A program made the translations under genes and the position numbers. The notes under the pieces are model-generated. The model made no database searches and was not told the DNA's origin. It saw nothing but the letters and a program-made list of their open reading frames with translations. This document shows, one piece after another, positions 3,298 through 32,000 of a DNA stretch of 64,000 nucleotides. The stretch's first letter is position 1. Every line of letters begins with the position of its first letter. Origin of the DNA: an uncultured Bacilli bacterium (GTDB taxonomy: Bacteria > Bacillota_I > Bacilli_A > RF39 > UBA660); NCBI GenBank assembly GCA_910585915.1, contig CAJUGF010000001.1, forward strand, positions 4,622-68,621, given 5' to 3'.

Positions 3298-3471
3298 ATG
3301 GCTAAAAATATAAATAGACAATATGTTGGTCTTAAATGTAGTAGATGTGGCAAACAAATTCGTCCTACTGTAAAAAATAAGAAAAATACGACTGATAAAT
3401 TAGAATTAAAAAAGTATTGCCCTAATTGTCGTAAAGCAGTAGTATTTAAAGAAACTAAATTAGGTAAATAA
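3298..3471 (+). CDS. rpmG: 50S ribosomal protein L33
   Basis: RBS AAAGGAGG upstream of ATG at 3298. Small basic protein with two CxxC pairs (CSRCGK ... CPNCRK) and KKYCPxC, typical of L33. Confidence 0.8.
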   Translation: MAKNINRQYVGLKCSRCGKQIRPTVKNKKNTTDKLELKKYCPNCRKAVVFKETKLGK

Positions 3472-7365: not shown

Positions 7366-7401
7366 GTGGTAGATAGTGGCACAAGGTGGAAGAAAGTGGG
7401 G
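7366..7401 (+). promoter_or_regulatory. MraZ operator: four direct GTGG(G) repeats at exact 10-bp periodicity
   Basis: GTGG at 7366, 7376, 7386 and 7396 (the last is GTGGGG), 9 bp before the mraZ start. This matches the known MraZ binding architecture of direct TGGG-type repeats on a 10-bp period upstream of mraZ. Confidence 0.7.
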
Positions 7402-11192: not shown

Positions 11193-11259
11193 GGAATTAT
11201 AATTCTCATCCTAAGAAAAAATAAAATTATACGAATTGGGAAGGAGAAAAGTGATTCTT

Positions 11260-12009
11260 ATGGTAAAACATTTTATTATTATGGGAAGTTCTTATGAAAC
11301 AAAACGAAAAATTGCATTAGATGTAGTTGGAGAAGAACGAGTTTGTGAAAAGGAAGTTCGTTCTATTATGGATTATTTGAAAGAAAATTGTCTTTTAAGT
11401 TCTATTTCTACACATATGATTATTACCGATTCTCCAACTTTTCAATCTGTACAAAATCATGATCATTTTTTTTCTAATGTTAGTCTAATTTCAACAAAAG
11501 AAGAATTTGTTAATCTAATTAATAAAGATCGATATTTAAAAGGAATTGATGTAGCTAATTATATAAAAACACGTATTTCTTGTACTCATTTAAAAATTGA
11601 AAAATTAACTTATCTTTGTTATGCTGATTATCTTTGTGCTTATCATAAGCCTTTATTTCAAGATAAAATATTCGCTTATGCTAAGGGACCAGTGGTACAA
11701 TCCGTTTATCGAAAGTTTAAAGGCATAAAATCTTTATTAAATGTGAGTGAGGATGATAAGAAGGAATATTCTAATAAAAGTGCTTATATGTCTGTACGTA
11801 GTAGAATTATGGTTTCAGAAGATGGATTATATAAATTGGATAGTATTAATAAAACTTTAGAGAAGTATGGCCATTTGAAAGGTCAAGAATTAGTAGAATT
11901 GACACATAGAGTGGATAGTCCATGGGTTTATTCGGGAAGTGGAAAGAAAAAATATCAAAAAATTACAGATGATATTATTTTGAAATATCATTGTAATGAG
12001 ATTCTTTGA
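11260..12009 (+). CDS. Panacea/GepA-like (DUF4065) domain protein, solo; ORF track starts at 11236 (TTG)
   Basis: Core LKIEKLTYLCYADYLCAYHKPLFQDKIFAYAKGPVVQSVYRKFKG closely matches the Panacea/SocA-GepA domain consensus (KLQKLLYyaq ... PLF.d.i.AW.yGPVvpsvY). Flanked by novel N- and C-terminal extensions. RBS GGAAGGAG. Confidence 0.75.
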   Translation: MVKHFIIMGSSYETKRKIALDVVGEERVCEKEVRSIMDYLKENCLLSSISTHMIITDSPTFQSVQNHDHFFSNVSLISTKEEFVNLINKDRYLKGIDVANYIKTRISCTHLKIEKLTYLCYADYLCAYHKPLFQDKIFAYAKGPVVQSVYRKFKGIKSLLNVSEDDKKEYSNKSAYMSVRSRIMVSEDGLYKLDSINKTLEKYGHLKGQELVELTHRVDSPWVYSGSGKKKYQKITDDIILKYHCNEIL

Positions 12010-12104
12010 TATTGTGATGTTGTGTATTTTGAAACTGGAAAAATTATCGCTTAAAGATAATTTTTTTTCTTTTAGTAATAAAAATGTTATAAATTCCATA
12101 ATTT

Positions 12105-12215
12105 GGGCTCGACAAATTTAAAAAATGTGATAAAATAACAACTTAATTAATCATTTTATGGGGGTTGTGATGTATTTTCGACAAATTGCGACAAATGTGG
12201 TGACAAATGTGTGTT
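12105..12215 (+). promoter_or_regulatory. Array of four GACAAAT direct repeats upstream of the polysaccharide locus (candidate transcription-factor binding sites)
   Basis: (C/T)GACAAAT at 12111, 12180, 12190 and 12202; the last three are on a 10-12 bp (helical) period and followed by GTG. They sit in the 290-bp intergenic region before the initiating sugar transferase gene. Confidence 0.5.
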
Positions 12216-12301
12216 AAGTTAATGTTATGATCTGTGAAGTAAAGTAGATTAATGTTATACTTTTATTAAGTTAAAGGGGATTTAAAAGGAGAGGTTGGTT
12301 T

Positions 12302-12979
12302 ATGAATCAAGAAAAGGTTTTAATTGAAAGTACGCATAGTGGAATTGCTACTTTTAAGAAGATTTGTTATGTTTGTAGTAAAAGAACATTTGATGTTTTA
12401 GTGAGTCTGATTGGAATGTTATGGTTACTTCCACTTGCTATTATTATTAAAGTAATTTATGTGTGTACAGGGGATTTTCATAGTATTTTTTATAAGCAAG
12501 AGAGAATTGGCCTTCATGGAAAAACTTTTATGCTTTATAAGTTTCGTACAATGAAACCACATGCAGATGAGTTACTTAAAATTATTCTTGCAAATAATGA
12601 AGATTTGCGTAATGAATATGAAGAAAATAAAAAAATGAAAAATGATCCTCGTATTACGAAAGCTGGTAAAATAATTCGTAAACTTTCTTTGGATGAATTT
12701 CCTCAATTTATTAATATTTTTAAGGGAGATATGAGTTTGGTTGGAAATCGTCCTTATTTACCACGTGAGAAAGAAGATATGGGAAGTTATTATAAATATA
12801 TTATTAAAACAAAACCCGGTCTTACTGGATATTGGCAAGTGAATGGTAGAAGTAATACAACGTTTATTGATCGACTTAGAATGGAGAAAAAGTATAGTAA
12901 TATTCAAAGTTTTGGTTTAGATGTCAAGATCATTTTTAAAACAATGGAACAATTTATTAAACATAATGGAGCTATGTAA
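12302..12979 (+). CDS. Polyprenyl-phosphate sugar phosphotransferase (bacterial sugar transferase, WbaP/CpsE C-terminal domain type)
   Basis: Single N-terminal TM then the Bac_transf domain motifs (KFRTM, DELPQ-like DEFPQFINIFKGDMSLVGNRP, YWQV). RBS AAAGGAGAGG. Confidence 0.88.
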   Translation: MNQEKVLIESTHSGIATFKKICYVCSKRTFDVLVSLIGMLWLLPLAIIIKVIYVCTGDFHSIFYKQERIGLHGKTFMLYKFRTMKPHADELLKIILANNEDLRNEYEENKKMKNDPRITKAGKIIRKLSLDEFPQFINIFKGDMSLVGNRPYLPREKEDMGSYYKYIIKTKPGLTGYWQVNGRSNTTFIDRLRMEKKYSNIQSFGLDVKIIFKTMEQFIKHNGAM

Positions 12980-13054
12980 TTTTATAGCTTTTTTTATTGA
13001 AAAGTTTTGAAAATTTTGGATAGTATGTTAAAATTATATTGGAAGGTAAGTTTT

Positions 13055-14233
13055 ATGAAACACGTTTTTATTATTGGATCTAAAGGTATTCCAGCTAATT
13101 ATGGAGGATATGAAACTTTTGTACATAAATTAACTGAATACCAAAAGAATAAACATCTTAAATTTCATGTAGCATGTGCAGTGGATGATTTGTCTAAACA
13201 TTCAATTGAGTTTGAATTTAATGGAGCGCATTGTTTTAATATTGAATGGCGCAGGCTTGGATCTGCACGAGCTATTTTTTATGATGTGGATGCATTAAAA
13301 TGGGCTATTCAATATGTTAAAGCCAATAAAATAGAAAAACCAATTTTTTATATTTTGGCATGTCGAATGGGGCCATTTATTCATAAATATAAGAAAATTA
13401 TTTCTAGTTTAGGTGGAAAACTTTATGTTAATCCAGATGGTCATGAATGGTTACGAAGTAAATGGAGTTTGCCAGTTAGAAAATATTGGAAGATTTCAGA
13501 AAGTTTAATGATAAAACATGCTGATTTAGTAATATGTGATAGTAAAAATATTGAAGAATATATTCATAAAGAATATAAAAAATATCATCCTAATACAACT
13601 TATATTGCTTATGGTGCAGAAACTTCTCCATCTACTTTATCTGATGATGATAATAAATGGAAGGAATGGCTTAGTAAAAATCAAGTAAAATCTAATCAAT
13701 ATTATTTGATTGTGGGAAGATTTGTACCAGAGAATAATTATGAAACTATGATTAGAGAATTTTGTAATTCAAATATTTCAAAGGATTTGGTTATTATAAC
13801 TGGGGTAAAATCTAATGATAAATTTTTTGATTATTTGAGTCAAACTACAAATTTTCAAAAGGATAAGCGTGTAAAGTTTGTTGGAACAGTTTATGATCAA
13901 GATCTTTTAAAAAAAATTCGTGAAGAAGCTTATGGATATTTGCATGGACATGAGGTTGGAGGTACCAATCCAAGTTTATTAGAAGCTTTAGGTTTAACAA
14001 AGCTAAATCTTTTATTCGATGTCGGTTTTAATCGAGAAGTGGCACTTGATACTGCTTATTATTGGACCAAAGAAAAAAATAATTTATCTAAACTTTTAGA
14101 AAAGTGCGAAAATTTGAGTGCAGCAGAGATCAATGATATTTCTAAATCTGCGAAAAAGATTATTCGGGAAAAATATAGTTGTGAGTACATTAACGAACGA
14201 TATGAAAGGTTGTTTTATGATGGAGAAAAATGA
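13055..14233 (+). CDS. Glycosyltransferase family 4 with DUF1972-type N-terminus (WchF/Cps2T-like rhamnosyl/glycosyl transferase)
   Basis: N-terminus MKHVFIIGSKGIPANYGGYETFV is typical of DUF1972-GT4 enzymes. C-terminal GT4 E..GG..P..LEA-type region (HGHEVGGTNPSLLEA). Confidence 0.75.
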   Translation: MKHVFIIGSKGIPANYGGYETFVHKLTEYQKNKHLKFHVACAVDDLSKHSIEFEFNGAHCFNIEWRRLGSARAIFYDVDALKWAIQYVKANKIEKPIFYILACRMGPFIHKYKKIISSLGGKLYVNPDGHEWLRSKWSLPVRKYWKISESLMIKHADLVICDSKNIEEYIHKEYKKYHPNTTYIAYGAETSPSTLSDDDNKWKEWLSKNQVKSNQYYLIVGRFVPENNYETMIREFCNSNISKDLVIITGVKSNDKFFDYLSQTTNFQKDKRVKFVGTVYDQDLLKKIREEAYGYLHGHEVGGTNPSLLEALGLTKLNLLFDVGFNREVALDTAYYWTKEKNNLSKLLEKCENLSAAEINDISKSAKKIIREKYSCEYINERYERLFYDGEK

Positions 14234-15047
14234 TTTTTTGTTGCAGATTCAGTCTTTAGAACTGGAAGCTTTAAAAGAATTAAAATCGTTTTGTGATAAG
14301 CATCAAATAAAGTTCTTTTTACGTGGTGGTAGTGTTATGGGAGCAATTAAGTATTCAGGATTTGTTCCTTGGGATGATGATGCAGATATTGCTATTCCTA
14401 GAGATCAGTATGATAAGTTAATAAGTCTTTGTCAGACAGAAGAATGGTCCGAAAAATTCTATATTGCCAGTTATCATTATAATTCAGAAATACATTGTTA
14501 TTTCCCAAGAGTTTTAGTTAAAAATGAGGTTTTAGAACAATTGCAATTACCAAAGAATAATCATTTAGGTTTAACCATTATTGATATTTTGCCATTAGAT
14601 GGTGCTCCAAAAAGTCGCTTTGCTCGGGAATTATATTTTTTCAAAGTTTATGTTTTAAGAGCGTTAGCAGGGGTTCATACTCTTAGTATTAAAGAAACTG
14701 TTGATATGCATGATAGCAAAAAAAGACTTGTTTTAAAATTATTAAAATTTTTTCATGTTGATTCTTTGTATTCTCAAGATCAAATATATCATGCTCTTGA
14801 TCGCTTATATAAAAGATATGACTATAAAACTTGCAAACATATAGGTACTCTTACTGGATCTTTGTATAAGAAAGAAATTTTTCCAAGAGATTATTGGGGG
14901 GAAGGCGTTTATCATAAATTTTGTGATACTGAATTTTTAGTTCCAGATGAATATGATAAATATTTGCAACAATTATATGGAAAGGATTATATGACTACTA
15001 TACCAACAGAAGAGAAGATTGCAGCAAAAAAACATATAAAAGAGTAG
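14217..15047 (+). CDS. LicD-family phosphotransferase (phosphocholine/polyol-phosphate transfer to glycopolymers)
   Basis: LRGGSVMGAIKYSGFVPWDDDADIAIPR matches the LicD nucleotidyltransferase-fold DxD motif; overlaps the upstream gene by 17 nt. Confidence 0.8.
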   Translation: MMEKNDFLLQIQSLELEALKELKSFCDKHQIKFFLRGGSVMGAIKYSGFVPWDDDADIAIPRDQYDKLISLCQTEEWSEKFYIASYHYNSEIHCYFPRVLVKNEVLEQLQLPKNNHLGLTIIDILPLDGAPKSRFARELYFFKVYVLRALAGVHTLSIKETVDMHDSKKRLVLKLLKFFHVDSLYSQDQIYHALDRLYKRYDYKTCKHIGTLTGSLYKKEIFPRDYWGEGVYHKFCDTEFLVPDEYDKYLQQLYGKDYMTTIPTEEKIAAKKHIKE

Positions 15048-15059
15048 TATGAGAAATTT

Positions 15060-15935
15060 ATGATAGGGTTTGTTATTTTACATTATATGGCTTATGATGA
15101 AACCATAAAATGTACAGAGAAAATTTTAGAAAATGTGAGAGAAGAAAAAAAAATTGTAATTGTTGATAATGCGTCTAGTAATGGTTCAGGGCAAAAGTTA
15201 AAAGAATATTTTGCTAATAATGATGATGTTATTGTAATTTTACAATCATCTAATTTAGGATTTGCTAAAGGAAATAATATTGGATTTCAATATATAAAGA
15301 GTAATTTTAATTGTGATTATTTAGTGATACTTAATAACGATGTAGAGATATCTGATCAATGTTTTAAAGAAAAATTGGATGATGCTTATCAAAAATATGA
15401 TTTTGATGTTTTGGGACCTGATATTTATTGTACCACTTTAGATGTTCATCAAAGTCCTAAAAGGTTATCTTCTTATACTTACAATGAAGTTGTAAGTGAA
15501 TTAGATAAATATAGAAAAAAATCTCAAAGCAAGTATGTTACTGCATTTAAATGTTATTTGAAGAAAATTCCTTTTTTAAAGAAAATGGTACATGGGAAAA
15601 GACGTGGAAGACAGCAGATTGATTATAATAAAACTTATTTTAATGTTCCATTACATGGCTCTTGTGTTGTTTATTCAAAAAAATTTATAGAAAAAAGATC
15701 CTATGCTTTTTTTGATCAAACTTTTATGTATTTTGAGTTAGAAATATTGGATTATGAATGTCATAGAGATTCTATGAAAACGGTGTATTATCCAGCTATT
15801 AAAGTTTTACATCATCATAATGTTTCAACTAATCTGGCATATAAATCTGAACTTCAAAAAGTTCATTTTATGAATCAATGTATATGTGAATCATTAGAAA
15901 AATTTGTAGAACTAATGGAAAAGGATAGAAATTAA
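15060..15935 (+). CDS. Glycosyltransferase family 2
   Basis: VIVDNASSNGS, LNNDVE (DxD-like) and the GT-A architecture. Confidence 0.8.
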   Translation: MIGFVILHYMAYDETIKCTEKILENVREEKKIVIVDNASSNGSGQKLKEYFANNDDVIVILQSSNLGFAKGNNIGFQYIKSNFNCDYLVILNNDVEISDQCFKEKLDDAYQKYDFDVLGPDIYCTTLDVHQSPKRLSSYTYNEVVSELDKYRKKSQSKYVTAFKCYLKKIPFLKKMVHGKRRGRQQIDYNKTYFNVPLHGSCVVYSKKFIEKRSYAFFDQTFMYFELEILDYECHRDSMKTVYYPAIKVLHHHNVSTNLAYKSELQKVHFMNQCICESLEKFVELMEKDRN

Positions 15936-15949
15936 AAGAGGGTGAATTA

Positions 15950-17293
15950 ATGGAATACTTAGTATTACTGTTTATTACAGAAATTTTCTTTTTAATGATT
16001 TCTTATTTTTCGACTGGGAGAGATATTTTAAGACCTATAAATGTTATGCTTGGAATGTTTTGTTTAAGTACTTTCATTGCGCTTTTGAATGTATTTAATT
16101 GGAATATTGTTTATTCATGGCGCTCTTATTTTATTCTTTCCACAGGGTTATTAGTAGCTTTAATGGCAGATGTTTTTGCTTATAAAAAAAATGATAAGAA
16201 GGCTATTGTTTCAAAAAGAGAGTTAAAAAAAATTGACATTTCTACTTATAAAATTTATTTTATTATTTTGGTTGAATTGGTGATTCTTTTCTTGTATTAT
16301 CGAGAAATAAGACGGCTTGCTATTTTAGATGGTTATGTGGATGGTGCAAACTTATTATGGCATTTTCGAAATATTACTTCTTATACAAGTGAGGAGAGCT
16401 TACGAGGAATTATTAGTTTATTAATTAAATTCATTGATGCTGTTGCTTATGTTTTATCATTTGTTTTGATTAATAATTTATTTTCTAAAAAAATTAAAAA
16501 AAGTGAAGTAGTGCTTTTCTCAATTCCTATTTTATTGTTTGCAGGTAAGGTGTTAATGAGTTCTGCTAGAATGGAATTATTACGTTGGGGAGCTTATTCT
16601 TTTGTTGTAAGTTATATATTGTATAAATATAAAGTTGGATGGGATAAAAATACTACTAAGAGATATGTTACTAAAGGTCTAATTTTAATTCCTGTTGTTT
16701 TATTATTATTTTATTATGCTTCTAGTATTATTGGACGTTCAACAACACGTTCTATGTTTGATTATATATCTACTTATGCAGGTGGTTCTATTCAACATTT
16801 TAATCAATATATTGATTCACCTACCACGACTGAACATTTTGGAGAGGAGACTTTCCCTGCCGTTTATACTATGTTTAAAAGAATCGGATTAACTGATTAT
16901 AGTCGTCCTGTGCATTTGGAAATGCGTCAATTGGGAGTAACTCAGGGCAATGTTTATACTTTTTTTCGCAGACCTTATAATGATTTTGGATATTTTGGAA
17001 TGTTGATTTTTACTTTTATTTTGATTTTTTTCTTTTCTAATGTGTATTCAAAATTTAAGTATAAACACAATAGTTATAGAAATGATTGCGTAATAATTTT
17101 TTACAGTTATTTATTTTATTGGATTGTTCTTTCTTCAGTAGAGCAATATTCAATTGGTTTTGTATCAATGGGTACTGTTTTAACTCTTATTTATTTTCGA
17201 TTATTATATTTCTTTTTTATTCAACTAAAAATACAAAAGTCGAAAATTATTATATATAAAAGCAAAGAGGGGATTTTGAATGAAGGAGAGTAA
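15950..17293 (+). CDS. Polytopic membrane protein, probable Wzy-type polysaccharide polymerase
   Basis: About 10-12 predicted TM helices with one larger loop; its position between the glycosyltransferases and the flippase suggests Wzy. Functional call by context only. Confidence 0.5.
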   Translation: MEYLVLLFITEIFFLMISYFSTGRDILRPINVMLGMFCLSTFIALLNVFNWNIVYSWRSYFILSTGLLVALMADVFAYKKNDKKAIVSKRELKKIDISTYKIYFIILVELVILFLYYREIRRLAILDGYVDGANLLWHFRNITSYTSEESLRGIISLLIKFIDAVAYVLSFVLINNLFSKKIKKSEVVLFSIPILLFAGKVLMSSARMELLRWGAYSFVVSYILYKYKVGWDKNTTKRYVTKGLILIPVVLLLFYYASSIIGRSTTRSMFDYISTYAGGSIQHFNQYIDSPTTTEHFGEETFPAVYTMFKRIGLTDYSRPVHLEMRQLGVTQGNVYTFFRRPYNDFGYFGMLIFTFILIFFFSNVYSKFKYKHNSYRNDCVIIFYSYLFYWIVLSSVEQYSIGFVSMGTVLTLIYFRLLYFFFIQLKIQKSKIIIYKSKEGILNEGE

Positions 17294-18671
17294 ATTAACT
17301 AAAGGTATGCTATATGTTTTAATGGCAAATATTGTGAATTTAATTTTTACATTGGCTACTAATTTTTTACTTCCGAAATATTTGTCTGTTGATACTTATG
17401 CTGCTATTAAAACTTTTCAATTATATGTTACTTATATTGGCTTTTTTCATTTTGGTTTTGTAGATGGAGTTTATTTGAAATTTGGTGGAAAGAATTTAGG
17501 AGCTTTGGATAAAAAAGAAACTATGCGTTCTTTGGCTACTTTGCGTATTTTCCAATTTTTACTTTCATTGTTTTTCATTCTTTTTGCTTTGGTTATTGAT
17601 GATATGATTTTGTTAATGTTTTCATTAGCCATTCTTCCTTTAAATGTAACTTCTTATTTTAAAATGCTTTATCAGTCAGTGGGGGAATTCCAAAAATATA
17701 GTAAGATTACTAATTATGTTGCAGTTTTAACTTTTGTAGTAAATATGATTTTATTATTCTTTTTCCGTAGTGCATCGTTTATGGCTTATTTATTTTGGTA
17801 TGTTTTAATAGATTTGTTTGTTTGGTTTCTTTTAGAATTTAGTTTTTGTAAAGTTTTAAATGAAAAAATTCGTCTATTTTATTTTTCTTTTCAAGAATTC
17901 TTTTCTAATATAAAATCTGGTTTTTCTTTGATGCTTGGAAATTTTGCTTCATTTATTTTAACAGGGCTTGACCGTTGGTTTGTAAAAATATTGATGTCTA
18001 CTATATCATTTGCTCAATATTCGTTTGCTGTGAGTGTCGAAAATATGCTTAACGTGGCTTTGACACCTATCTCTATACCTTTATATAATTATTTTTGTAA
18101 TGAAGATTCCTCTAAAAAAATAAATTTTGTATATCAAGGTATGGTTTTATTTGGGGTAGTTATTGTTTCATCAGCTTTTGTTGTTAAATTTATTCTGGAA
18201 GTATTTTTGACTAATTATTTAGATTCATCTGTCATTATATTTTATTTATTTGCTGCTCAAATATTTCAAATTTTAATTAAGTCTGTGTATGTCAATTTAT
18301 ATAAGGCTAGGAAGCAACAAAAGAAGTATTTTCATCGTTTGTTGTTCGTTGTTTTTTCAGGAATTGTTTTTAATATTGTTTTTTATCTTTTATTAAAAAA
18401 TATTTCAGCTTTTGCCATTGGAACTTTATTTTCTTCTATTTTGTGGTTTCTTTTTTCAAGATGGGATTTTAAAGATATTGGAAATCAATTTCAACTTTTT
18501 CTATTTTTAATTTTAGAAACATTGTTATTTTTATCTTGTGGAATTTTGTTAAATTCTATATGGGGATTTTTATGTTATGTGATAGGTTCTCTTTTCTTTA
18601 GTTTTATTTTTATGGGGGATTATATTATTAACTTATTTAAAATGCTTAAAAGTAAAATTTTGTCAAAATGA
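17280..18671 (+). CDS. Polysaccharide flippase (Wzx / MOP superfamily)
   Basis: 463 aa with about 12-14 TM helices and the Lys-rich N-terminus typical of Wzx; locus context. Confidence 0.6.
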   Translation: MKESKLTKGMLYVLMANIVNLIFTLATNFLLPKYLSVDTYAAIKTFQLYVTYIGFFHFGFVDGVYLKFGGKNLGALDKKETMRSLATLRIFQFLLSLFFILFALVIDDMILLMFSLAILPLNVTSYFKMLYQSVGEFQKYSKITNYVAVLTFVVNMILLFFFRSASFMAYLFWYVLIDLFVWFLLEFSFCKVLNEKIRLFYFSFQEFFSNIKSGFSLMLGNFASFILTGLDRWFVKILMSTISFAQYSFAVSVENMLNVALTPISIPLYNYFCNEDSSKKINFVYQGMVLFGVVIVSSAFVVKFILEVFLTNYLDSSVIIFYLFAAQIFQILIKSVYVNLYKARKQQKKYFHRLLFVVFSGIVFNIVFYLLLKNISAFAIGTLFSSILWFLFSRWDFKDIGNQFQLFLFLILETLLFLSCGILLNSIWGFLCYVIGSLFFSFIFMGDYIINLFKMLKSKILSK

Positions 18672-18758
18672 TTTACATAAAATGTTAATTTTTTATGTAA
18701 TTTTATTTGAAATAGATTATAATCATGATATATTCAATATAGTGTGGAGGGATTTTTA

Positions 18759-19460
18759 ATGGAAGAAATTAATATTGGAGAATTTTTCTCATTTGTTAAG
18801 AAACATTTAATCTTTTTTGTTTCTATGATTTTAATGATTTTAGTTATTTGTATTTTGTATTTTATAGTAATTAAAAAGCCAATATATTCATCTGATGTAT
18901 CTTTAACTTTAACTGGAGTTAATGATTCTCAAGGTAGAGTTACAACCAATGATATTACTTTAAATACAAAAATGTTACCTACCTATCAAGAGGTAATTAC
19001 AAGTCGTAAGGTACTTGATCAAGTAATTAATAATTTAAAGCTTAATAAAACCGTTTCCGAGCTTGTTGGACATATTAAAATTCAAGCTAATACGGATTCG
19101 ATGGTTTTAAATATTACGGTTACGGATGAGAATCGAGTGATTGCTAAAGATATTGCTAATGAAGTGGCTAGTATTTTTGGGGAAGAAATTAAAATTTATG
19201 GTATTACGAGTGTTACTATTTTAGATAAGGCTATTGTAAATGATACACCTATAAATATTAATTATACTAAATCAATTTTGATTAGTTTGTTGGCTGGAAT
19301 ATTTATTTCTTTGGTTTGTTTGTTTATTGTCTTTTATTTAGATACTACGGTAAAAGGTATGGAACAAGTTAATACAAAGTTAGGTCTTGTTGTCTTGGGT
19401 GGAGTTCCACTTCATACAGAAAATACCAAGGGAGTTAGAAAGGGGTTAAAACGTAAATGA
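18759..19460 (+). CDS. Chain-length determinant / BY-kinase modulator (CpsC/YwqC-like Wzz domain)
   Basis: N-terminal TM, periplasmic Wzz-like region, second TM near the C-terminus, basic tail (KGVRKGLKRK); the stop overlaps the start of the kinase gene. Confidence 0.75.
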   Translation: MEEINIGEFFSFVKKHLIFFVSMILMILVICILYFIVIKKPIYSSDVSLTLTGVNDSQGRVTTNDITLNTKMLPTYQEVITSRKVLDQVINNLKLNKTVSELVGHIKIQANTDSMVLNITVTDENRVIAKDIANEVASIFGEEIKIYGITSVTILDKAIVNDTPININYTKSILISLLAGIFISLVCLFIVFYLDTTVKGMEQVNTKLGLVVLGGVPLHTENTKGVRKGLKRK

Positions 19461-20131
19461 AAAATGAATTAATTGTTGATCAAAATCCTAAATCTTCAGT
19501 AGCAGAAGCAATTCGTATTGTTCGTACTAATCTTCAATTTTCTTCAGCAGATAAAGAAGTTAAAACAATTTTAGTAACTTCGTCGATCGCAGGAGAAGGA
19601 AAAAGTTTTATTAGTTCTAATTTGGCTATTGCTTTTGCTCAAAATGGAAAAAAAGTATTATTAATTGATTGTGATTTACGAAGAGGCCGTTTACATCGAA
19701 TTTTTAATCTTGAAAATGATAAAGGGCTTTCTAATCTTTTGATTTCTGATATTCAAGCAAATTTTTCAGGATATTTACAGAAGACTAGAATTAAAAATTT
19801 ATTTTTATTGTCTAGTGGTAGTGTTCCTCCAAATCCTAGTGAACTTTTGGATTCTAAGAAAAATGAAACTCTTATTGAACTTTTAAGTAAAAAGTTTGAT
19901 TATATTATTTTTGATGGAACTCCAGTTGGAGGATTAACTGATTCGGTTATTATGGCTAAATATGTAGATAAGGTAGCTATTGTATGTGCTGTTAATTATA
20001 CAAAGGTTGATCAACTTGTTAATACACAAAAGACTTTAGAGAATATTGAAGCAGATATTGCAGGTGTTATTGTTAATAAGATTCCTGATATGCATAGTAG
20101 TTATTATGGCAATTATTATGTAGAAGATTAA
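19457..20131 (+). CDS. Tyrosine-protein kinase (CpsD/YwqD BY-kinase, P-loop ATPase)
   Basis: Walker A SSIAGEGKSF, Walker A' LLIDCDLRR, and a C-terminal Tyr cluster YYGNYYVED. Confidence 0.88.
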   Translation: MKNELIVDQNPKSSVAEAIRIVRTNLQFSSADKEVKTILVTSSIAGEGKSFISSNLAIAFAQNGKKVLLIDCDLRRGRLHRIFNLENDKGLSNLLISDIQANFSGYLQKTRIKNLFLLSSGSVPPNPSELLDSKKNETLIELLSKKFDYIIFDGTPVGGLTDSVIMAKYVDKVAIVCAVNYTKVDQLVNTQKTLENIEADIAGVIVNKIPDMHSSYYGNYYVED

Positions 20132-20176
20132 TTGAAACTGGATTATAATTTTCAGTTTTTTCTTTTGGAGGATTGT

Positions 20177-20611
20177 ATGAAATATAAACGTGTATTAAAA
20201 TGGATATTTTTATTATTTTGGATGATTCTTATTTTTTCTTTTTCTTCTCAAAATGGTAGTACAAGTTCTTCTGTTTCTAATTTTTTTGTTTCTTTTTTTG
20301 AAAATCATTGTTTTTTGGCAGTTGATTTAGTATTTTTAATACGAAAGGGTGCTCATTTTTTTGAATATTTTATTTTAGGTGTTTTAGTTCTTTTTTTAAT
20401 TCGAGAATATGTTCTACAGGAATGGAGAGCATTATTGTATTCTTTTTGTTGTTGTCTTTTTTATGCTATTAGTGATGAGATTCATCAGCTTTTTGTTGTT
20501 GGAAGAAGTGGAAGAGTTATGGATGTTATTATTGATGGTTGTGGAGCACTTTTAGGAATTTTAATTTTTAGTTTTCTTCTGCTATTGAAAAAAAAGTCAA
20601 GAAAAAATTGA
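20177..20611 (+). CDS. VanZ-family membrane protein
   Basis: 4 TM; GAHFFEY ... DEIHQLFVVGRSGRVMDVIIDGCGALLG matches the VanZ-like signature. Confidence 0.7.
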   Translation: MKYKRVLKWIFLLFWMILIFSFSSQNGSTSSSVSNFFVSFFENHCFLAVDLVFLIRKGAHFFEYFILGVLVLFLIREYVLQEWRALLYSFCCCLFYAISDEIHQLFVVGRSGRVMDVIIDGCGALLGILIFSFLLLLKKKSRKN

Positions 20612-20875
20612 TATTTTGTCATTTTTGGTGTAAACTATGTAGTATAGTAGAGGGATTTGTCGAATGCCTTTTGTTGCATTGTCCTCTTTGCTTTTTATAA
20701 TAGTTTTTTTGAGGTGACTGGTATGATTTTTTTTCTTATAGGTAGTTTCTTTTTTTGTTATTCTTTTTGCGTTTCAGCATCTAAAGAAACTGTTGAGTTG
20801 GAGGAATGTTAATCTAAAGTTTGCATTCTGAGTGCTTTTTTGATATAGTTGTTCAGAAAGATAGTAGGGATGTTT

Positions 20876-22330
20876 ATGGCAAAAAGTAAGGGAAACAATA
20901 GATTAAGTACTAATACTTTTCGTATTTTTCGTATTGGTGGTTATGTAAGTTTTTTGCTCCTTATGATTTTTGATTATTTTTTATATCAGTTGGATGTATT
21001 GCCAAGCAAATATTTATTTTTGCTTTTGATTGTGACTTTATTAGTGGAGTTATTTGCTATTGGAGCAATTTTATTTTTTAAGAAGCCTCTTAAGATTGCA
21101 GGATTTGTTGTTGTTATAATTTTTGGCCTATTTAGTGGAATCGGTATTTATTATGGATATCATGCAAATTCTTTTTTAAATGATTCTTTTCGAAATAGTA
21201 AGCTTAATTCTTCTGCTACTTATTATATAATTGTTCCAAATGATAGTAATATCTCTTCAATAAACGATATTGATTCAACCTTTTCTTATTTGTCTGGAAC
21301 TTATTTAATTGATCAAGCTCTTATTAGTTTTCAGGAGAAAAAAAATATTCAAATGACTTCTTATGATGATGCACTTACTATGTTTCAGGATTTAAAAAGT
21401 CATTTGATTTTAGGTGCTTTAGTAGATCAGACTTCTTATCAATTGATTTTAGAAATGAAAAATGAATTTGTAGAAAGTGATTTTAAAGTAATTGATTCTT
21501 TTGAGGTTCAAATGGAAGTAGAAAATGATACGATTAGTAATAGTTCTGATAAGTTTCAAGTTTATATTGGGGGAAATGATTTTACGAATAGTTTAATGGA
21601 CTTTAATATGATTGTGACTATTAATACGAAGAGTCATCGAATTTTATTTACGAGTATTCCTCGTGATTATTATATTCCAGTTTTTGGATATGATGGAAGA
21701 CGTGATACATTAAGTTTTATGGGTGCCCGAGGTATTGAAGTTAATCGTAGGTCTTTGGCTGATTTTTTAGGAATGGATTTAAATTATTTTATGAAGCTTG
21801 AAACGAAGAGTTTGGTAGGTATTGTAGATCAAGTGGGGGGAATTACTTATTGTTCTGATCGAAGTTTTACTACTACGCATGCAACAATATTGGATACTTA
21901 TGATGATTCTAAGGGGAATAAGTTAGATGTTAAAAAAGGATGCCAGAAATTAAATGGGATTGAAGCTTTGACTGTTGCTCGTGAACGCCTTGCATTTCCA
22001 GGTGGAGATCGTCAACGTCAAAAGAATTGTCAACAAATTATTATGGCAATTTTCAAACAACTGATTAGCACTAATACTATTACTAATTATAATAATATTT
22101 TAAGTTCTTTAAGTGATTTATATCAAACTAATATTCCAAGAGAGATCATTACTGATTTAATTAAAGAAACCATTGCTGGAGCAGAGTGGGATATAGAGAA
22201 TCAATCTATGGATGGAAGTGATTCTAATAATTTTGTTCATTTGTCTAATTTAAGAAGCTATGTTATGATTCCTAACCCTGATTCTGTGGAAGAAGCAAAA
22301 ATAAAAATGAAGGATATTTTAGATTCTTAG
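20876..22330 (+). CDS. LytR-CpsA-Psr (LCP) family glycopolymer-peptidoglycan ligase
   Basis: N-terminal TM segments then the LCP core (ILFTSIPRDYYIPVFGYDGRRDTLSF ... LVGIVDQVGGI). Confidence 0.85.
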   Translation: MAKSKGNNRLSTNTFRIFRIGGYVSFLLLMIFDYFLYQLDVLPSKYLFLLLIVTLLVELFAIGAILFFKKPLKIAGFVVVIIFGLFSGIGIYYGYHANSFLNDSFRNSKLNSSATYYIIVPNDSNISSINDIDSTFSYLSGTYLIDQALISFQEKKNIQMTSYDDALTMFQDLKSHLILGALVDQTSYQLILEMKNEFVESDFKVIDSFEVQMEVENDTISNSSDKFQVYIGGNDFTNSLMDFNMIVTINTKSHRILFTSIPRDYYIPVFGYDGRRDTLSFMGARGIEVNRRSLADFLGMDLNYFMKLETKSLVGIVDQVGGITYCSDRSFTTTHATILDTYDDSKGNKLDVKKGCQKLNGIEALTVARERLAFPGGDRQRQKNCQQIIMAIFKQLISTNTITNYNNILSSLSDLYQTNIPREIITDLIKETIAGAEWDIENQSMDGSDSNNFVHLSNLRSYVMIPNPDSVEEAKIKMKDILDS

Positions 22331-27886: not shown

Positions 27887-28972
27887 ATGAAAAATAAGAA
27901 AATGGATTATTTTTTGTTTTTTGCTGTTCTTTTGATTGGAGTCTTTGGAATGATTATGATTTATTCTGCAAGTAGTATTTGGGCAGAATATAGGTTTCAT
28001 GATGCATTTAAATTTGTGAAAGCACAAGCCGTTTTCTTTCTTGTAGGGATTATACTTATCAATGTGATATCAAAGATTGATTATCATTTGTATCTTAAAT
28101 ATTCAAATAAAATTTTAGCCATTTGTTTTCTTTTACTAGTGTTAGTATTAATTCCTGGCATCGGAACAATTCGAAATGGATCTCGAAGTTGGTTTGGGCT
28201 TGGTGGTTTTGGTATTCAACCTTCTGAGTTTGCTAAGATTGGTTTAATTATTTATACTGCTAAGTATTTATCAAAGCACCAAAGAGAGATGCGAGATATT
28301 AAGAAGGGTGTTTTACCAATTTTGATGGTTATTGGCGTTTTTTTCTTACTTATTATGTTGGAACCTGATTTTGGAACAGCTATGGTTATTGTTTTAACAT
28401 TAGTGTGTATGATTTTTGTAAGTGGCGTTAAGATTTCCTTCTTTGTAAAAATGGGCCTTTTAGGGATTTTAGGAATTGTTGCACTTATTATTGTTGCACC
28501 ATATCGAATGGCAAGAATTGTTTCATTTTTAAATCCATGGACAGATCCTTTAGGAAGTGGATTTCAAATTATTCAATCGCTTTATGCAATTGGACCTGGG
28601 GGATTACTTGGGCAAGGATTTTTGAATAGTCATCAAAAGCATTTTTATTTGCCAGAGCCACAAACAGATTTTATTTTTTCAATTATTAGTGAAGAATTCG
28701 GCTTTCTTGGTGTTTTGATTGTGGTTAGTTTTTTCTTTTTCATTTTTTATCGTACTTTAAAGATTAGCATGAGTACAAATGATGCTTTTGGAAAATATTT
28801 ATCTTTTGGTCTTTCTTTTGGTATTATTATTCAAGCTGTTTTGAATTTATGTGTTGTTATTGGATTAATTCCTGTCACAGGAGTTACTTTGCCATTTTTA
28901 TCTTATGGAGGAAGTAGTTTACTCGTAAGTATGGCGAGTATTGGAATTATTTTAAATATTAGCAAAAATTAA
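27887..28972 (+). CDS. ftsW: SEDS-family peptidoglycan glycosyltransferase FtsW/RodA
   Basis: RBS AAAGGAGG; 10-TM SEDS protein with PFLSYGGSSLL-type C-terminal motif. Confidence 0.9.
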   Translation: MKNKKMDYFLFFAVLLIGVFGMIMIYSASSIWAEYRFHDAFKFVKAQAVFFLVGIILINVISKIDYHLYLKYSNKILAICFLLLVLVLIPGIGTIRNGSRSWFGLGGFGIQPSEFAKIGLIIYTAKYLSKHQREMRDIKKGVLPILMVIGVFFLLIMLEPDFGTAMVIVLTLVCMIFVSGVKISFFVKMGLLGILGIVALIIVAPYRMARIVSFLNPWTDPLGSGFQIIQSLYAIGPGGLLGQGFLNSHQKHFYLPEPQTDFIFSIISEEFGFLGVLIVVSFFFFIFYRTLKISMSTNDAFGKYLSFGLSFGIIIQAVLNLCVVIGLIPVTGVTLPFLSYGGSSLLVSMASIGIILNISKN

Positions 28973-29072
28973 CTATAGTTATAATGATTAGATTTTTATG
29001 AGTTTTTTGAAATTTTAGTGTTGCCAAACTAACTGTTCAATGTCATAATAATTTTCGAAGGTGATTTTTAAC

Positions 29073-32000
29073 ATGAAATTAACAAAGGAACAACAAAAAT
29101 TGTGGAATGTATATCATTATGCTTTTCCCTCTATAGATCAATTTTTAGATTTTTATAATCATGCTTTTAATGATTCGAAGCAAAATGTGAAGATAAGTTT
29201 TCAACAGTTGATGCAGCAGTATTTAAAAAAACATATGAATGTTGATTTAATGATGAATTATCTTAATCAGTTGAATATCAATTATAATTCTTCTAGTCAA
29301 GAAATTCGTATTAAATTACGTCCTTTTTATCAATTATTAGATCAATTGGATTATTGTTTAGCAATGGATGATGCAGCAGTATTAATTGAGTATCCTTTGT
29401 TTCAAACTTTATTTTCTAAACTTTTTGGTCAAAATAAAATAATAGCTGAGGATCAATTTCAAAAATTGGCGAATGATAGTATTTATTTTGAAATTTTATG
29501 TCGTGTTTATTTAGATTGTCATGATATTGAAGTAGATGAATCTTTAAATAATAAAGATGATAGAACTTTATCTAAGACAAAGATTTTGACTCATGAGGAG
29601 GAAATTGAATTAGCGAAAAGAATTGAAGCTGGTGATATAAAGGCTCAAGAAACTTTTATTTTAGCAAATCAACAATTAGTTAAGTATGTTGCAAAGAGTT
29701 ATATTGGAAATGGTCTTGAATTTGATGATTTGTTTCAAGAAGGAATCATAGGACTTATGACAGCTATTCAAAAGTTTGATTATCAAAAAGGTTATAAATT
29801 TTCTACTTATGCTGTTTGGTGGATTCGTCACGCAATATATCATGCTATAAGAAAGGCTAGAGCGATTCCAGTACCAACTTATCGCGAACAAGAATATAAT
29901 CATATTATGAAGGTGCATGCTCAACTGGTGAATGAGCTTCAACGGAAACCATCTTTAGATGAATGGGCAAATCATTTAGGAATGGAGAAAGAAAGCTTGC
30001 AAGAAATAGTCAACTCTATTCCTAATGTAGTATCATTCGAAAGCAAAGTATCGAGTGAAGATGATAAAGAACTTGGGGATTTTTATGAAGATTCAAAGGC
30101 ACGTTTTGAGGAAGATGTCGTTCAAAGACAATATGTTTCGGAAATATTAAAATTGAGTAAAGAAATATTAAGTGAAAAAGAATATCAAGTTTTATTACTT
30201 CGATTTGGATTAGCTGATGGAACCAGTTATACTTTAGAAGAAGTTGGAAGAAAATTTAATGTAACAAGAGAAAGAATTCGTCAAATTGAAGCTAAGGCAT
30301 TAATAAAATTGAAGCATAGTTTGAAATATGAAAAGAATAAAACATTACATTTAGCTGAGAATGAACCTAACTTAGAAGAAGTTGGAAAAAAATTTAATGT
30401 AACGAGAGAGAGAACTCGTCAAATTGAGAACGCTATGAATGAACCTAGCTTAGAAGAAGTTGGAAATAAATTTAATGTAACAAGTGAGAGAACTTGTCAA
30501 ATTGAGAACACTATGAATGAACCTAACTTAGAAGAAGCTGAGAAAAAAATTAATGTAACAAGAGAGAGAACTTGTCAAATTGAGAACGTTATGAATGAAC
30601 CTAACTTAGAAGAAGCTGGGAAAAAAATTAATGTAACAAGAGAGAGAACTTGTCAAATTGAGAACACTATGAATGAACCTAGTTTAGAAGCGAAAAAAAA
30701 ATATACAAAGTTTGATATTCATCTTCTTCATTCTTCCCTTTCTATATCTTTACTTGTGGATTTTATTAAACTTTTTCCAAAACATGATCAAAAACTGTAT
30801 TGCTGTTTGAGAGGAATTCAGTTGTCTCAAAAAGATATCGTTCCAATAGAAGATGATTCATTTAATGATAAACAAAAGAAATATATCACTATTATTGAAA
30901 ACGATCTGAAGGCTATGGCATGTGAATATTTTTATTATATTAAAAAACGAAAATGTGATAAGGAAGTTGCTTTAAAGCATCTTGCAAAAGTTATGGTAAT
31001 AAAATTTCTTCGTTTTCGATATCCTAATTCTACACTATCTATGATTATGGATGCAGTGAAAAAACTTCCGTTAGAACAACGTCAGGCTATATATCGAGTG
31101 CATGGTGAAGATTTGTGTTCTTATTTGTTAGGTGTAGGTGTCAGACAAAAAAAATCAAGTTTGTTAAATCTTGCCTATAAAGATATTGCTGCTATTTTAA
31201 ATGAACATGAAGTGGTTCATATCAAGACAAGAAGTAATACTTTGTTTTTACTTATGGAGAAATATCCAGAGATTTCTTTAGAACAATGGATTTTAAATAT
31301 ACAATCTTTGCCAAAAAAACAAAGAGAAATTATGCAGTATGTTCATGGAGAGAGCCTCGATCAGAATCGATCTTTTTCAAGTCAAGACAAAGTGAGGCAA
31401 TATGCTAACTATCAAAATGGACTTCGAAGTTTAGAACAATTGGCAAATGGAACTAGAAGAGTTATTACACTAAAGGAACAAAAGAAAAATATGCTGTTTT
31501 TACTTATGGAGAAATATCCAGAGATTTCTTTAGAACAATGGATTTTAAATATACAATCTTTGCCAAAAAAACAAAGAGAAATTATGCAGTATGTTCATGG
31601 AGAGAGCCTCGATCAGAATCGATCTTTTTCAAGTCAAGACAAAGTGAGGCAATATGCTAACTATCAAAATGGACTTCGAAGTTTAGAACAATTGGCAAAT
31701 GGAACTAGAAAAGTTATTACACCAAAAGAAAAATTGTTCAAAATATTGAAAGTTGATAATGTTCAGATTTTAAATGAAGCATTAGAGCAACTTGAACTTT
31801 TTGAAAGGGATGTATTTTATTCTGTACATGGACAAACATTTGAAGAGTATCATGAGATTTCTAATTTTCAAGAGTATGAAAGAGTGTTTGAAAAACTAAG
31901 TGGAATAATGTTAGAAATACAAAAAGGGAAAAAGGATACCTTACTATCTTTACTTATGAAGAAGTATCCTGATATTACGAAAAAGCACTGGCATGTTTTT

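What the first reader, a model, noticed from the sequence alone, without database searches (positions are those of the whole stretch)
12105..12215. Helically phased GACAAAT direct-repeat array in the leader of the polysaccharide operon
There are four copies of (C/T)GACAAAT, one at 12111 and three at 12180, 12190 and 12202 (10-12 bp spacing, two followed by GTGG or GTGTG). They lie in an otherwise unremarkable 290-bp AT-rich spacer. This looks like a multi-site operator for a dimeric or oligomeric DNA-binding regulator (response regulator, or a sigma-like protein's HTH) controlling the glycopolymer locus. No regulator gene is adjacent, so the array could be a target of the unusual sigma-like proteins in this window or of a regulator elsewhere.
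Basis: seen in the sequence. Interest (0 to 1): 0.55.

Follow-up and report, generated by a model that had tools for sequence, protein, structure and literature searches.

The report
Tandem Spo0A-like boxes before polysaccharide operon
The repeated GACAAAT motif is real and conserved in related gut bacteria and in true Bacillus species, and it most likely forms a row of docking sites for the sporulation master regulator Spo0A inside a three-promoter control region for a cell-wall sugar-polymer operon; this is a sensible but unsurprising piece of gene regulation.

Summary
GACAAAT occurs at 12111, 12180, 12190 and 12202 on the + strand, with 10- and 12-bp spacing. Single-window statistics are only suggestive: 0 of 2000 shuffles for this motif, but about 8% once any comparable 7-mer is allowed. 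Comparative data make the case. Two species-level relatives (83% and 71% identity in the adjacent gene) keep three GACAA cores at the same spacing while the spacers have diverged. More distant relatives keep one to three units. Copy 1 is the -35 hexamer (TCGACA) of a conserved upstream promoter, P1. Copies 2-4 lie upstream of and over a -35-like hexamer that always sits 20-22 bp, too far, from a second extended -10 (P2). A third extended -10 promoter (P3) and a WalR-type direct repeat follow. Read on the other strand, the 42-unit consensus is TTTGTC(G/A)AAT, which is the Spo0A '0A box' TGTCGAA. The window has one perfect and two 6/7 boxes, one pair 3 bp apart. Similar tandem boxes sit in capsule loci of Mesobacillus and Bacillus. 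The best reading is reverse-oriented Spo0A boxes that repress P1 and activate P2 (confidence about 0.45). I could not verify spo0A in this uncultured lineage. This is a new member of a known kind, of modest interest.

The parts
12109..12117 (+). Copy 1. TCGACA is the -35 hexamer of promoter P1. On the - strand it reads TGTCGAG, a 6/7 match to the 0A box.
   Evidence: The promoter scan scores it 10/12 with a TG extension. CTCGACA is conserved in L012, L092, L097, L099, L019, L093, L095, L096, L100 and L021, but is TGGACT in L091 and TATACA in L011.
12128..12136 (+). P1 extended -10 (TGaTAAAAT).
   Evidence: The only polymorphism among 10 near-identical strains is A/C at 12133 (TAAAAT or TACAAT); both versions are good -10 hexamers.
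12177..12186 (+). Box A (copy 2), TTCGACAAAT. On the - strand it reads ATTTGTCGAA, a perfect 7/7 0A core.
   Evidence: The aligned positions are TTCGACAAAG in L091 and TTTGACAAAG in L097.
12187..12196 (+). Box B (copy 3), TGCGACAAAT. On the - strand the core is TGTCGCA (6/7), 3 bp from box A.
   Evidence: It aligns with TGTGACAAAT in L091, TGTGACAAAA in L097 and TGTGACTTAA in L012.
12199..12208 (+). Box C (copy 4), GGTGACAAAT. GTGACA is a -35-like hexamer lying 20 bp upstream of the P2 -10 hexamer. Its match to the 0A box is only 4/7.
   Evidence: A TTGACA, nTGACA or TTTACA hexamer lies 20-22 bp upstream of the P2 -10 in all 12 lineages compared.
12212..12228 (+). Conserved direct repeat TGTTAA-gttaa-TGTTAT. 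It fits the WalR/VicR consensus TGTWAH-N5-TGTWAH and overlaps the P2 extended -10.
   Evidence: It is conserved in the window, L012, L099, L092 and L019, with one mismatch in L011 and L091. The consensus is as quoted in PMC4168254. The window count is not above chance: 2 against 1.2 expected.
12223..12231 (+). P2 extended -10 (TGtTATGAT).
   Evidence: TATNAT or TATAGT, with a TG extension in most lineages, is conserved in all 12 lineages.
12253..12261 (+). P3 extended -10 (TGtTATACT), 30 bp downstream of the P2 -10.
   Evidence: TGnTATAAT or TATACT is conserved in all lineages.
12286..12304 (+). Ribosome-binding site AAAGGAGAGG and the ATG of the initiating sugar transferase (Bac_transf), the first gene of the polysaccharide locus 12302-22330.

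Best explanation
Copies 2-4 form a conserved row of same-orientation binding boxes. Their 42-unit consensus is ATT(C/T)GACAAA(A/T), which is the reverse complement of the Spo0A '0A box' (TTTGTC(G/A)AA). The boxes sit in the control region of a cell-wall polysaccharide operon that carries three sigma-A-type promoters, P1, P2 and P3.

Proposed mechanism (inferred, not shown). During growth, P1 fires, and probably P3 too. When phosphorylated Spo0A accumulates, it binds as head-to-tail dimers to the tandem boxes. The box that forms the -35 of P1 (plus, in a sister clade, a second box inside the P1 spacer) would occlude P1. Boxes A-C lie at about -58, -48 and -36 relative to P2, over a -35-like hexamer placed 20-22 bp from the -10. 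They would let RNA polymerase use P2, as at the Spo0A-activated spoIIG and spoIIE promoters of B. subtilis.

What is shown: the motif, its conservation, its register relative to conserved promoter elements, and its recurrence in capsule loci of spore-forming Bacillaceae. What is inferred: the identity of the binding protein and the direction of regulation.
For: 1. Sequence. The - strand reads ATTTGTCGAA at 12177-86 (7/7 to TGTCGAA), TGTCGCA at 12187-93 and TGTCGAG at 12108-14 (6/7 each). All three keep G2, C4 and G5, the bases contacted by Spo0A according to PMC3485338.
2. Boxes A and B are separated by 3 bp. That is the arrangement reported for Spo0A-protected tandem boxes (PMC2731898).
3. 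Footprint in relatives. L091 (83% aa identity in the adjacent gene) and L097 (71%) keep three GACAA cores with 10 and 12-13 bp spacing. 18 of 21 motif columns are invariant, while the spacers differ (TGC, GTGGT, GTGTG against GTGT, AACAT, ATCTG).
4. A sister clade (L019, L093, L095, L096, L100) has two boxes 10 bp apart at P1: CTCGACAAAAT(A/G/T)CGACAAA. L096 has a perfect TGTCGAA there.
5. The 42-unit count matrix gives T, T, C/T before GACAAA. This is the whole 0A core, not only GACAAAT.
6. CGACA/TGTCG is about 14-fold denser in these leaders than in the rest of about 155 kb of clade sequence, and 25 of the 26 leader boxes with at most 1 mismatch are in one orientation.
7. A -35-like hexamer lies 20-22 bp from the P2 -10 in 12 of 12 lineages. 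From my own knowledge, spoIIG has 22 bp and spoIIE 21 bp.
8. Tandem boxes of the same kind lie between capB and capC in true spore-formers: Bacillus sp. JJ1122 TTCGACAAAGTGTGACAAAAT, Mesobacillus sp. AQ2 TTCGACTAGAATTCGACAAAAT, and B. infantis-like ATGACAAATGACGACAATTT.
9. The window carries yqfD (220 bits) and a weak yqfC. Walled relatives of this part of class Bacilli mostly retain spo0A (PMC10868615).
10. No RNA explanation was found: there is no Rfam hit, and the leader fold has z = -1.08.
Against: The presence of spo0A in this MAG could not be checked; no Spo0A gene lies in any fetched locus. The best-conserved part of each unit is GACAAA, which covers TGTC and the T-rich flank of the 0A box. 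The G5 position is C or T on the + strand in nearly equal numbers (23 against 17). Box C matches the 0A box at only 4/7, and several relatives have plain TTGACA, which is simply the sigma-A -35 consensus. The third spacing is 12-13 bp, not 10. The single-window statistics are marginal after look-elsewhere correction. No transcription start or binding data exist. The spoIIG and spoIIE spacer lengths come from my memory, because the primary papers were not held.
Confidence: 0.45

Rival explanations
1. The array is an operator for a different direct-repeat-binding regulator encoded elsewhere. Candidates are an OmpR/PhoB-family response regulator or the sporulation factor SpoIIID, whose consensus (WWRRACAR-Y, idealised GGACAAG, from my memory) shares the GACAA core.
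For: The invariant core across species is GACAA(A/G) rather than the CGAA half of the 0A box. Spacings of 10-13 bp suit tandem winged-helix dimers. A neighbouring conserved block fits the WalR/VicR consensus, so response-regulator control of this leader is plausible in general. SpoIIID is known to bind at the dcw-cluster genes spoVD and spoVE (PMC517825), and this locus sits between the two PBP genes of a dcw cluster.
Against: No known OmpR-family consensus fits. On the - strand the units read TGTCGA, TGTCGC and TGTCAC, which break the W at position 4 of the WalR consensus TGTWAH. PhoP's TT(A/T/C)ACA excludes G at position 3 (from my memory). The base before GACA is C or T, where SpoIIID prefers a purine. 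SpoIIID normally acts at sigma-E and sigma-K promoters, whereas all three promoters here are sigma-A type with TG-extended -10 elements.
Confidence: 0.25
2. There is no dedicated regulator. The units are just sigma-A -35-like hexamers (TTGACA variants) of overlapping or redundant promoters, multiplied by local duplication and kept by weak selection or drift.
For: Copy 1 is clearly a -35 hexamer. Eight lineages have a perfect TTGACA at the proximal unit. The number of units varies from 1 to 3 between lineages. Look-elsewhere statistics are marginal.
Against: None of boxes A-C is 16-18 bp from a usable -10; the proximal one is held at 20-22 bp in all 12 lineages. C rather than T before GACA is conserved (CTCGACA in 10 lineages) in a 29% GC genome where CG is rare, which a pure -35 would not favour. 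Cores are conserved while spacers diverge in three species. The element recurs in unrelated Bacillaceae loci.
Confidence: 0.2
3. The array is an RNA-level element. Copies 2-4 are transcribed from P1 as part of a roughly 160-nt leader and bind an RNA-binding or antitermination factor.
For: The array lies at about +37 to +66 of the predicted P1 transcript. In Bacillaceae the related boxes lie inside an operon, between capB and capC, and are presumably transcribed.
Against: The leader has no Rfam match even at E<=10, and neither does the Bacillus intergenic region; EAR/epsC was not found. Leader folding is no better than shuffles (z = -1.08). No terminator follows. The conserved features downstream are promoter elements. 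A 19-codon uORF at 12158-12217 is not conserved in L091 or L097.
Confidence: 0.05
4. The array is an MraZ operator. MraZ, the dcw-cluster regulator encoded 5 kb upstream, binds phased direct repeats, and copies 3 and 4 are followed by GTGG or GTGT.
For: MraZ is encoded in the window. Phased direct repeats are its known mode of binding (from my own knowledge).
Against: The organism's own MraZ boxes are visible upstream of mraZ: four GTGG at 7367, 7377, 7387 and 7397, exactly 10 bp apart. In the polysaccharide leader, GTGG occurs once. The GTG-containing spacers are not conserved in L091 or L097, whereas GACAA is.
Confidence: 0.03

Closest known systems
Spo0A binding sites (0A boxes, TGTCGAA) at Spo0A-activated sigma-A promoters such as B. 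subtilis spoIIG and spoIIE, and at repressed promoters such as abrB and phage phi29/Nf A2c
   Same: The 7-bp core is present: one perfect and two 6/7 boxes in the window. Boxes are tandem, head-to-tail and 3 bp apart. They are in reverse orientation over a -35-like hexamer. The distance from that hexamer to the -10 is overlong, 20-22 bp. A box also coincides with the core of a second promoter, which suits repression. The lineage carries sporulation genes.
   Different: The downstream operon is a wall or capsule polysaccharide locus, not a sporulation gene. In B. subtilis, Spo0A controls eps only indirectly (from my own knowledge). The conserved part of the unit is shifted towards TTTGTC. Position 5 is G or A. 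One spacing is 12-13 bp. Binding and the presence of spo0A are untested.
WalR/VicR (and SaeR-type) OmpR-family direct-repeat sites, TGTWAH-N5-TGTWAH
   Same: These are direct repeats with a helical period of about 11 bp in promoters of cell-envelope genes. The adjacent conserved block 12212-12228 fits this consensus exactly.
   Different: The GACAAAT units themselves do not fit the consensus on either strand. The WalR-like block is a separate element, and its second half may simply be the extended -10 of P2.
MraZ boxes of the dcw promoter
   Same: They are a phased array of short direct repeats in the same gene cluster.
   Different: The motif differs (GTGG at strict 10-bp spacing, 7367-7400), and the GTGG-like spacers of the array are not conserved.
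SpoIIID sites (GGACAAG type)
   Same: They share the GACAA(A/G) core, occur as multiple sites per promoter, and are known at dcw sporulation genes.
   Different: SpoIIID prefers a purine before GACA and acts at sigma-E and sigma-K promoters. The promoters here are sigma-A type.

Membership tests
Spo0A 0A-box operator | Match to the 7-bp core TGTCGAA, retaining G2, C4 and G5 | tested here: met
   12177-83 matches 7/7; 12187-93 and 12108-14 match 6/7 with G2, C4 and G5 intact. The fourth copy matches only 4/7, with G5 lost (contacts from PMC3485338).
Spo0A 0A-box operator | Tandem same-orientation boxes about 10 bp apart (3-bp separation) | tested here: met
   Boxes A and B are separated by 3 bp. 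The same holds in L091, L097, L035 and the P1 pair of L019, L093, L095, L096 and L100. This matches PMC2731898. The third box is 12-13 bp away.
Spo0A 0A-box operator | The organism encodes Spo0A | not testable with these tools
   The species is known only as MAG GCA_949518705.1 and Logan contigs. No Spo0A lies in the fetched loci. Indirect support comes from yqfD and yqfC in the window and from spo0A being common in walled relatives (PMC10868615).
Spo0A 0A-box operator | Binding by Spo0A~P, or by its DNA-binding domain, and Spo0A-dependent expression | not testable with these tools
   This needs EMSA or footprinting and reporter assays.
Spo0A-activated sigma-A promoter (spoIIG/spoIIE type) | A -35-like hexamer 21-22 bp from the -10, overlapped by reverse-oriented 0A boxes | tested here: inconclusive
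   The spacer is 20-22 bp in 12 of 12 lineages, with the proximal unit over the hexamer. However, the proximal box is a weak 0A match in the window, and the reference values are from my memory.
MraZ operator | Three or more GTGG-type repeats at a 10-bp period, as upstream of this organism's own mraZ | tested here: not met
   The genuine boxes are at 7367-7400. The array has a single GTGG, and its conserved core is GACAA.
WalR/VicR site | TGTWAH-N5-TGTWAH | tested here: not met
   The GACAAAT units do not meet it on either strand. The neighbouring block 12212-12228 does, but the window-wide count is not above chance.
Known cis-regulatory RNA (e.g. EAR/epsC, riboswitch, leader) | An Rfam covariance-model match or a stable conserved fold | tested here: not met
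   No relevant hit at E<=10. The fold z-score is -1.08.

The most novel reading that the evidence does not exclude
The boxes are not Spo0A sites. Instead they are the operator of a so far unrecognised regulator, conserved from Bacillaceae to uncultured small-genome gut Bacilli (RFN20-, RF39- or Erysipelotrichales-like). It would recognise tandem TT(C/T)GACAAA repeats and form a pan-Bacilli regulon of wall or capsular polysaccharide loci. The nearly identical 19-mer TTCGACAAAGTGTGACAAA in Bacillus sp. JJ1122 and in L091 would be its signature.
Probability: 0.15. Interest if true: 0.6.

Novelty: new member of a known kind. Interest (0 to 1): 0.35.

Why it matters
If Spo0A binds here, an uncultured, small-genome gut lineage would link surface-polysaccharide expression directly to the decision to enter stationary phase or sporulation. 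In B. subtilis that link is only indirect, through SinI/SinR and AbrB. The conserved leader (P1, boxes, P2, P3) precedes polysaccharide loci whose glycosyltransferase content varies between species. It therefore looks like the common regulatory 'head' of a serotype-like variable locus, which is useful for predicting when these gut bacteria change their surface. It is also a cheap test case, because Spo0A DNA-binding domains from cultured species could be used directly. It would not overturn any current view.

Tried and rejected
- Structured leader RNA or known riboswitch/EAR: no Rfam hits in the window leader or in the Bacillus intergenic region, and the fold is not better than shuffles.
- Leader peptide: the 19-codon ORF at 12158-12217 is not conserved in L091 or L097.
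- MraZ operator: the organism's real MraZ boxes are GTGG x4 at 7367-7400.
- ECF-sigma -10 (CGAC): there is no GAAC-type -35 at the right distance (read).
- Recent neutral tandem duplication: rejected, because three species share the three-unit layout with diverged spacers.
- Near-identical strains (10 contigs) were uninformative, showing a single SNP.
- The metagenome scan with the sugar transferase returned only relatives at or below 61% identity, with no alignable leader.
- Attempts to name the organism and to find spo0A in fetched DNA failed.
- Literature searches by raw sequence strings returned only primers.
- The primary spoIIG papers were not held.
- One of the three Bacillaceae look-ups returned no DNA.

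Full report
1. The observation. The sequence contains GACAAAT at 12111, 12180, 12190 and 12202, all on the + strand. The copies are preceded by C, C, C and T and are spaced 10 and 12 bp apart in the three-copy block. Copies 3 and 4 extend to an exact GACAAATGTG, and copies 1 and 2 share an exact TCGACAAATT. The window-wide count of the 7-mer is at expectation (17 against 16.7), but these four are the only + strand copies. In 2000 dinucleotide-preserving shuffles, four copies in 100 bp never occurred, and three in 30 bp occurred once. That test ignores the fact that the motif was chosen after looking. When any 7-mer of comparable complexity is allowed, 25 of 300 shuffles (8%) contain a three-in-30-bp cluster, and one other real example lies in coding sequence. 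The window alone therefore gives suggestive, not decisive, statistics.

2. Context. The window is about 29% GC with strong positive GC skew. It carries a dcw cluster: mraZ, mraW, ftsL and a PBP gene, then a SocA/Panacea gene (11236-12009), then a polysaccharide locus (12302-22330). That locus encodes an initiating sugar transferase, DUF1972 and GT1, LicD, GT2, two unknown membrane proteins, Wzz, a tyrosine-kinase-like ATPase, VanZ and an LCP protein. It is followed by a second PBP gene, mraY, ftsW/spoVE, a 1339-aa sigma-70-like ORF, murG, murB and ftsQ. yqfD (220 bits) and a weak yqfC lie further on. The same DNA occurs in MAG GCA_949518705.1 and several Logan assemblies. Across 10 such contigs the 292-bp spacer is identical except for an A/C polymorphism at 12133, inside a -10 hexamer. 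The nearest species in public genomes are labelled uncultured Erysipelotrichaceae, Tenericutes or Bacilli.

3. Promoter anatomy. The scan finds TCGACA-16 bp-TAAAAT with a TG extension, scoring 10/12. Copy 1 of the motif is therefore the -35 hexamer of a promoter, which I call P1. I fetched orthologous leaders through the sugar-transferase gene from 12 further species-level lineages and aligned or anchored them. These features are conserved:
- P1, as (C)TCGACA-16/17-TGnTA(A/G/C)AAT.
- A second extended -10 (P2; TGTTATGAT in the window, 12223-31).
- A third extended -10 (P3; TGTTATACT, 12253-61), 30 bp further on.
- The block TGTTAAGTTAATGTTAT between the array and P2.
In every lineage a TTGACA-like hexamer sits 20-22 bp upstream of the P2 -10 hexamer. 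That is too far for ordinary sigma-A use. In the window this hexamer is GTGACA, inside copy 4.

4. Is the array conserved? Yes. Anchored on P2, the sequences read:
- window: TTCGACAAAT TGCGACAAAT gtgg TGACAAAT
- L091 (83% aa identity in the adjacent gene): TTCGACAAAG TGTGACAAAT aaca TGACAAAT
- L097 (71%): TTTGACAAAG TGTGACAAAA atctc CGACAAGT
- L012, L099 and L011: GTTGACAAAA TGTGACTTAA aatt TTACAAAC
The spacing is 10 then 12-13 bp throughout. 18 of the 21 a-priori motif columns are invariant across the window, L091 and L097, while the intervening bases differ. More distant lineages keep only the proximal unit at P2. One subclade, in which the locus lies next to nrdD (L019, L093, L095, L096, L100), instead has two units 10 bp apart at P1: CTCGACAAAAT(A/G/T)CGACAAA. 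In the closest relative, L091, copy 1 is not conserved as GACAAAT (it is TGGACT). It therefore belongs to P1 rather than to the three-copy array.

5. What the unit looks like. Counting 42 units from 15 lineages gives the consensus A-T-T-(C/T)-G-A-C-A-A-A-(A/T)-T. Its reverse complement is A(A/T)TTTGTC(G/A)AAT, which contains the Spo0A 0A box TGTCGAA. According to PMC3485338, that core is flanked by A/T and is contacted at G2, C4 and G5. In the window the - strand reads TGTCGAA (12177-83, perfect), TGTCGCA (12187-93) and TGTCGAG (12108-14), each keeping G2, C4 and G5. Copy 4 reads TGTCACC (4/7). Boxes A and B are 3 bp apart, as in Spo0A-protected tandem boxes of phage Nf and phi29 (PMC2731898). 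Boxes within one mismatch of TGTCGAA are three-fold denser in the 13 leaders than in the remaining 151 kb of the same loci. TGTCG/CGACA is about 14-fold denser there. All but one of the leader boxes point the same way. These counts are inflated by shared ancestry; I estimate about five independent origins. In the window, 6 of 12 TTGTCG copies fall in the 8% of the sequence that is intergenic. They include a perfect ATTTGTCGAA at 20655-64, just upstream of a promoter-like site for the LCP gene.

6. An independent occurrence. I scanned all fetched loci (1.2 Mb) for GACAA-N4-8-GACAA. The scan found TTCGACAAAGTGTGACAAAAT in Bacillus sp. JJ1122 (L035), in the 108-bp gap between the CapB-like kinase and the CpsB/CapC phosphatase of its capsule locus. 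It shares 19 consecutive bases with L091. Two further Bacillaceae at the same position have TTCGACTAGAATTCGACAAAAT (Mesobacillus sp. AQ2, L182) and ATGACAAATGACGACAATTT (a B. infantis-type contig, L183). So tandem, same-orientation, 10-11-bp-spaced TT(C/T)GAC(A/T) boxes recur in polysaccharide loci of bona fide spore-formers. In Mesobacillus the conserved part is TTCGAC, the 0A half, rather than the AAA tail.

7. Mechanism proposed. The layout matches what is known for Spo0A. Boxes that coincide with a core promoter repress it; abrB and phi29 A2c are examples, and here the target would be P1. Reverse-oriented boxes over and upstream of a -35-like hexamer 21-22 bp from the -10 activate a sigma-A promoter; spoIIG and spoIIE are examples, though I cite those spacer values from memory because the primary papers were not held. 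Relative to a P2 start near 12238, the boxes lie at about -58, -48 and -36. I therefore propose a Spo0A~P-dependent switch from P1 to P2. P3, and possibly a WalR-type regulator acting on TGTTAA-N5-TGTTAT (12212-28, consensus as quoted in PMC4168254), would add further inputs. The motif, its register and its conservation are shown. The protein, the start sites and the sign of regulation are inferred.

8. Weak points. I could not show that this lineage has spo0A. The indirect support is yqfD and yqfC in the window, and the report that walled RFN20, RF39 and Erysipelotrichales lineages generally keep spo0A (PMC10868615). The G5 position is G in only 23 of 42 units. Plain TTGACA, the sigma-A -35 consensus, is common. 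The third spacing is 12-13 bp.

9. Rivals.
- Another direct-repeat regulator or SpoIIID (shares GACAA(A/G); known at spoVD and spoVE). The purine preference before GACA and the sigma-A nature of the promoters argue against SpoIIID.
- No regulator, only redundant -35-like hexamers. The fixed 20-22-bp offset, the conserved C before GACA in a CG-poor genome, and the Bacillaceae recurrence argue against this.
- An RNA element. There is no Rfam hit, the fold z-score is -1.08, and the uORF is not conserved.
- MraZ. The genuine MraZ boxes are four GTGG at 7367-7400, a different motif.

10. Verdict. The array is most likely a set of reverse-oriented Spo0A-type boxes embedded in a conserved three-promoter leader, and copy 1 is the -35 of a separate promoter. 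This is a new instance of a known kind of element. It is interesting mainly because it would tie surface-polysaccharide expression directly to Spo0A in an uncultured gut lineage. Interest is 0.35.

Noticed in passing
window 7367-7400: There are four GTGG repeats exactly 10 bp apart (ataGTGGtag ataGTGGcac aagGTGGaag aaaGTGGg) immediately upstream of or overlapping the listed GTG start of mraZ (7376). This is a textbook MraZ operator. The true mraZ start is probably downstream of the listed one.
   Followed up: partly
window 29061-33080: A 1339-aa ORF inside the dcw cluster carries a complete sigma-70 set (regions 1.2, 2, 3 and 4 at aa 170-419) followed by about 900 aa with no Pfam match. A WalR-like TGTTAATTTCATGTTAA lies on the - strand at 29068-29084, at its 5' end.
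   Followed up: no
window 11236-12009 and 12039-12065: A SocA/Panacea-domain gene (the N-terminal 120 aa have no Pfam match) lies between the PBP gene and the polysaccharide leader only in this species. Relatives L091, L092, L097, L099, L011 and L012 go straight from the PBP gene to the leader. It is followed by an AT-rich hairpin, AAAAATTATC-7-GATAATTTTT, plus a T run.
   Followed up: partly
window 12133: The only difference in the 292-bp spacer among 10 near-identical strains is A/C in the P1 -10 hexamer (TAAAAT against TACAAT).
   Followed up: yes
window 20655-20664: A perfect extended 0A-type box, ATTTGTCGAA, in forward orientation, lies in the gap between VanZ and LCP, about 8 bp upstream of a TTGCAT-16-TATAAT promoter-like site for the LCP gene. 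More generally, 6 of the 12 TTGTCG copies in the window lie in the 8% of the sequence that is intergenic; the others are at 3426 and 33315.
   Followed up: partly
window 12212-12228: TGTTAAGTTAATGTTAT fits the WalR/VicR consensus (TGTWAH-N5-TGTWAH), and also GTTAA-N6-GTTAT of SaeR type. It is conserved in most relatives. It overlaps the P2 extended -10 and lies at about -56 to -40 of P3.
   Followed up: partly
L035:3868-3890; L182:1094-1116; L183:1111-1132: Tandem TT(C/T)GAC(A/T) boxes lie between the capB-like kinase and the capC phosphatase genes of capsule loci in Bacillus sp. JJ1122, Mesobacillus sp. AQ2 and a B. infantis-type contig. They are followed by a conserved TTTACC-n-ATTA.
   Followed up: partly
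window 12302-22330 compared with L091, L092, L097, L093, L095 and L100: The leader and the initiating sugar transferase are conserved, while the downstream glycosyltransferase genes differ between species, giving a serotype-like variable locus. In one subclade the whole locus sits next to nrdD instead of inside the dcw cluster. One MAG (JAAVZT01) has two such loci (L021, L032) with related leaders.
   Followed up: partly
window 12160-12164: A G run (GGGGG) between P1 and the array is conserved in L091, L097 and L092, in an otherwise AT-rich leader. Its function is unknown.
   Followed up: no
window 28785-28821: CTTTTGG occurs three times within 30 bp inside the ftsW/spoVE coding sequence. It is the only other three-in-30-bp cluster of a non-trivial 7-mer in the window.
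   Followed up: no
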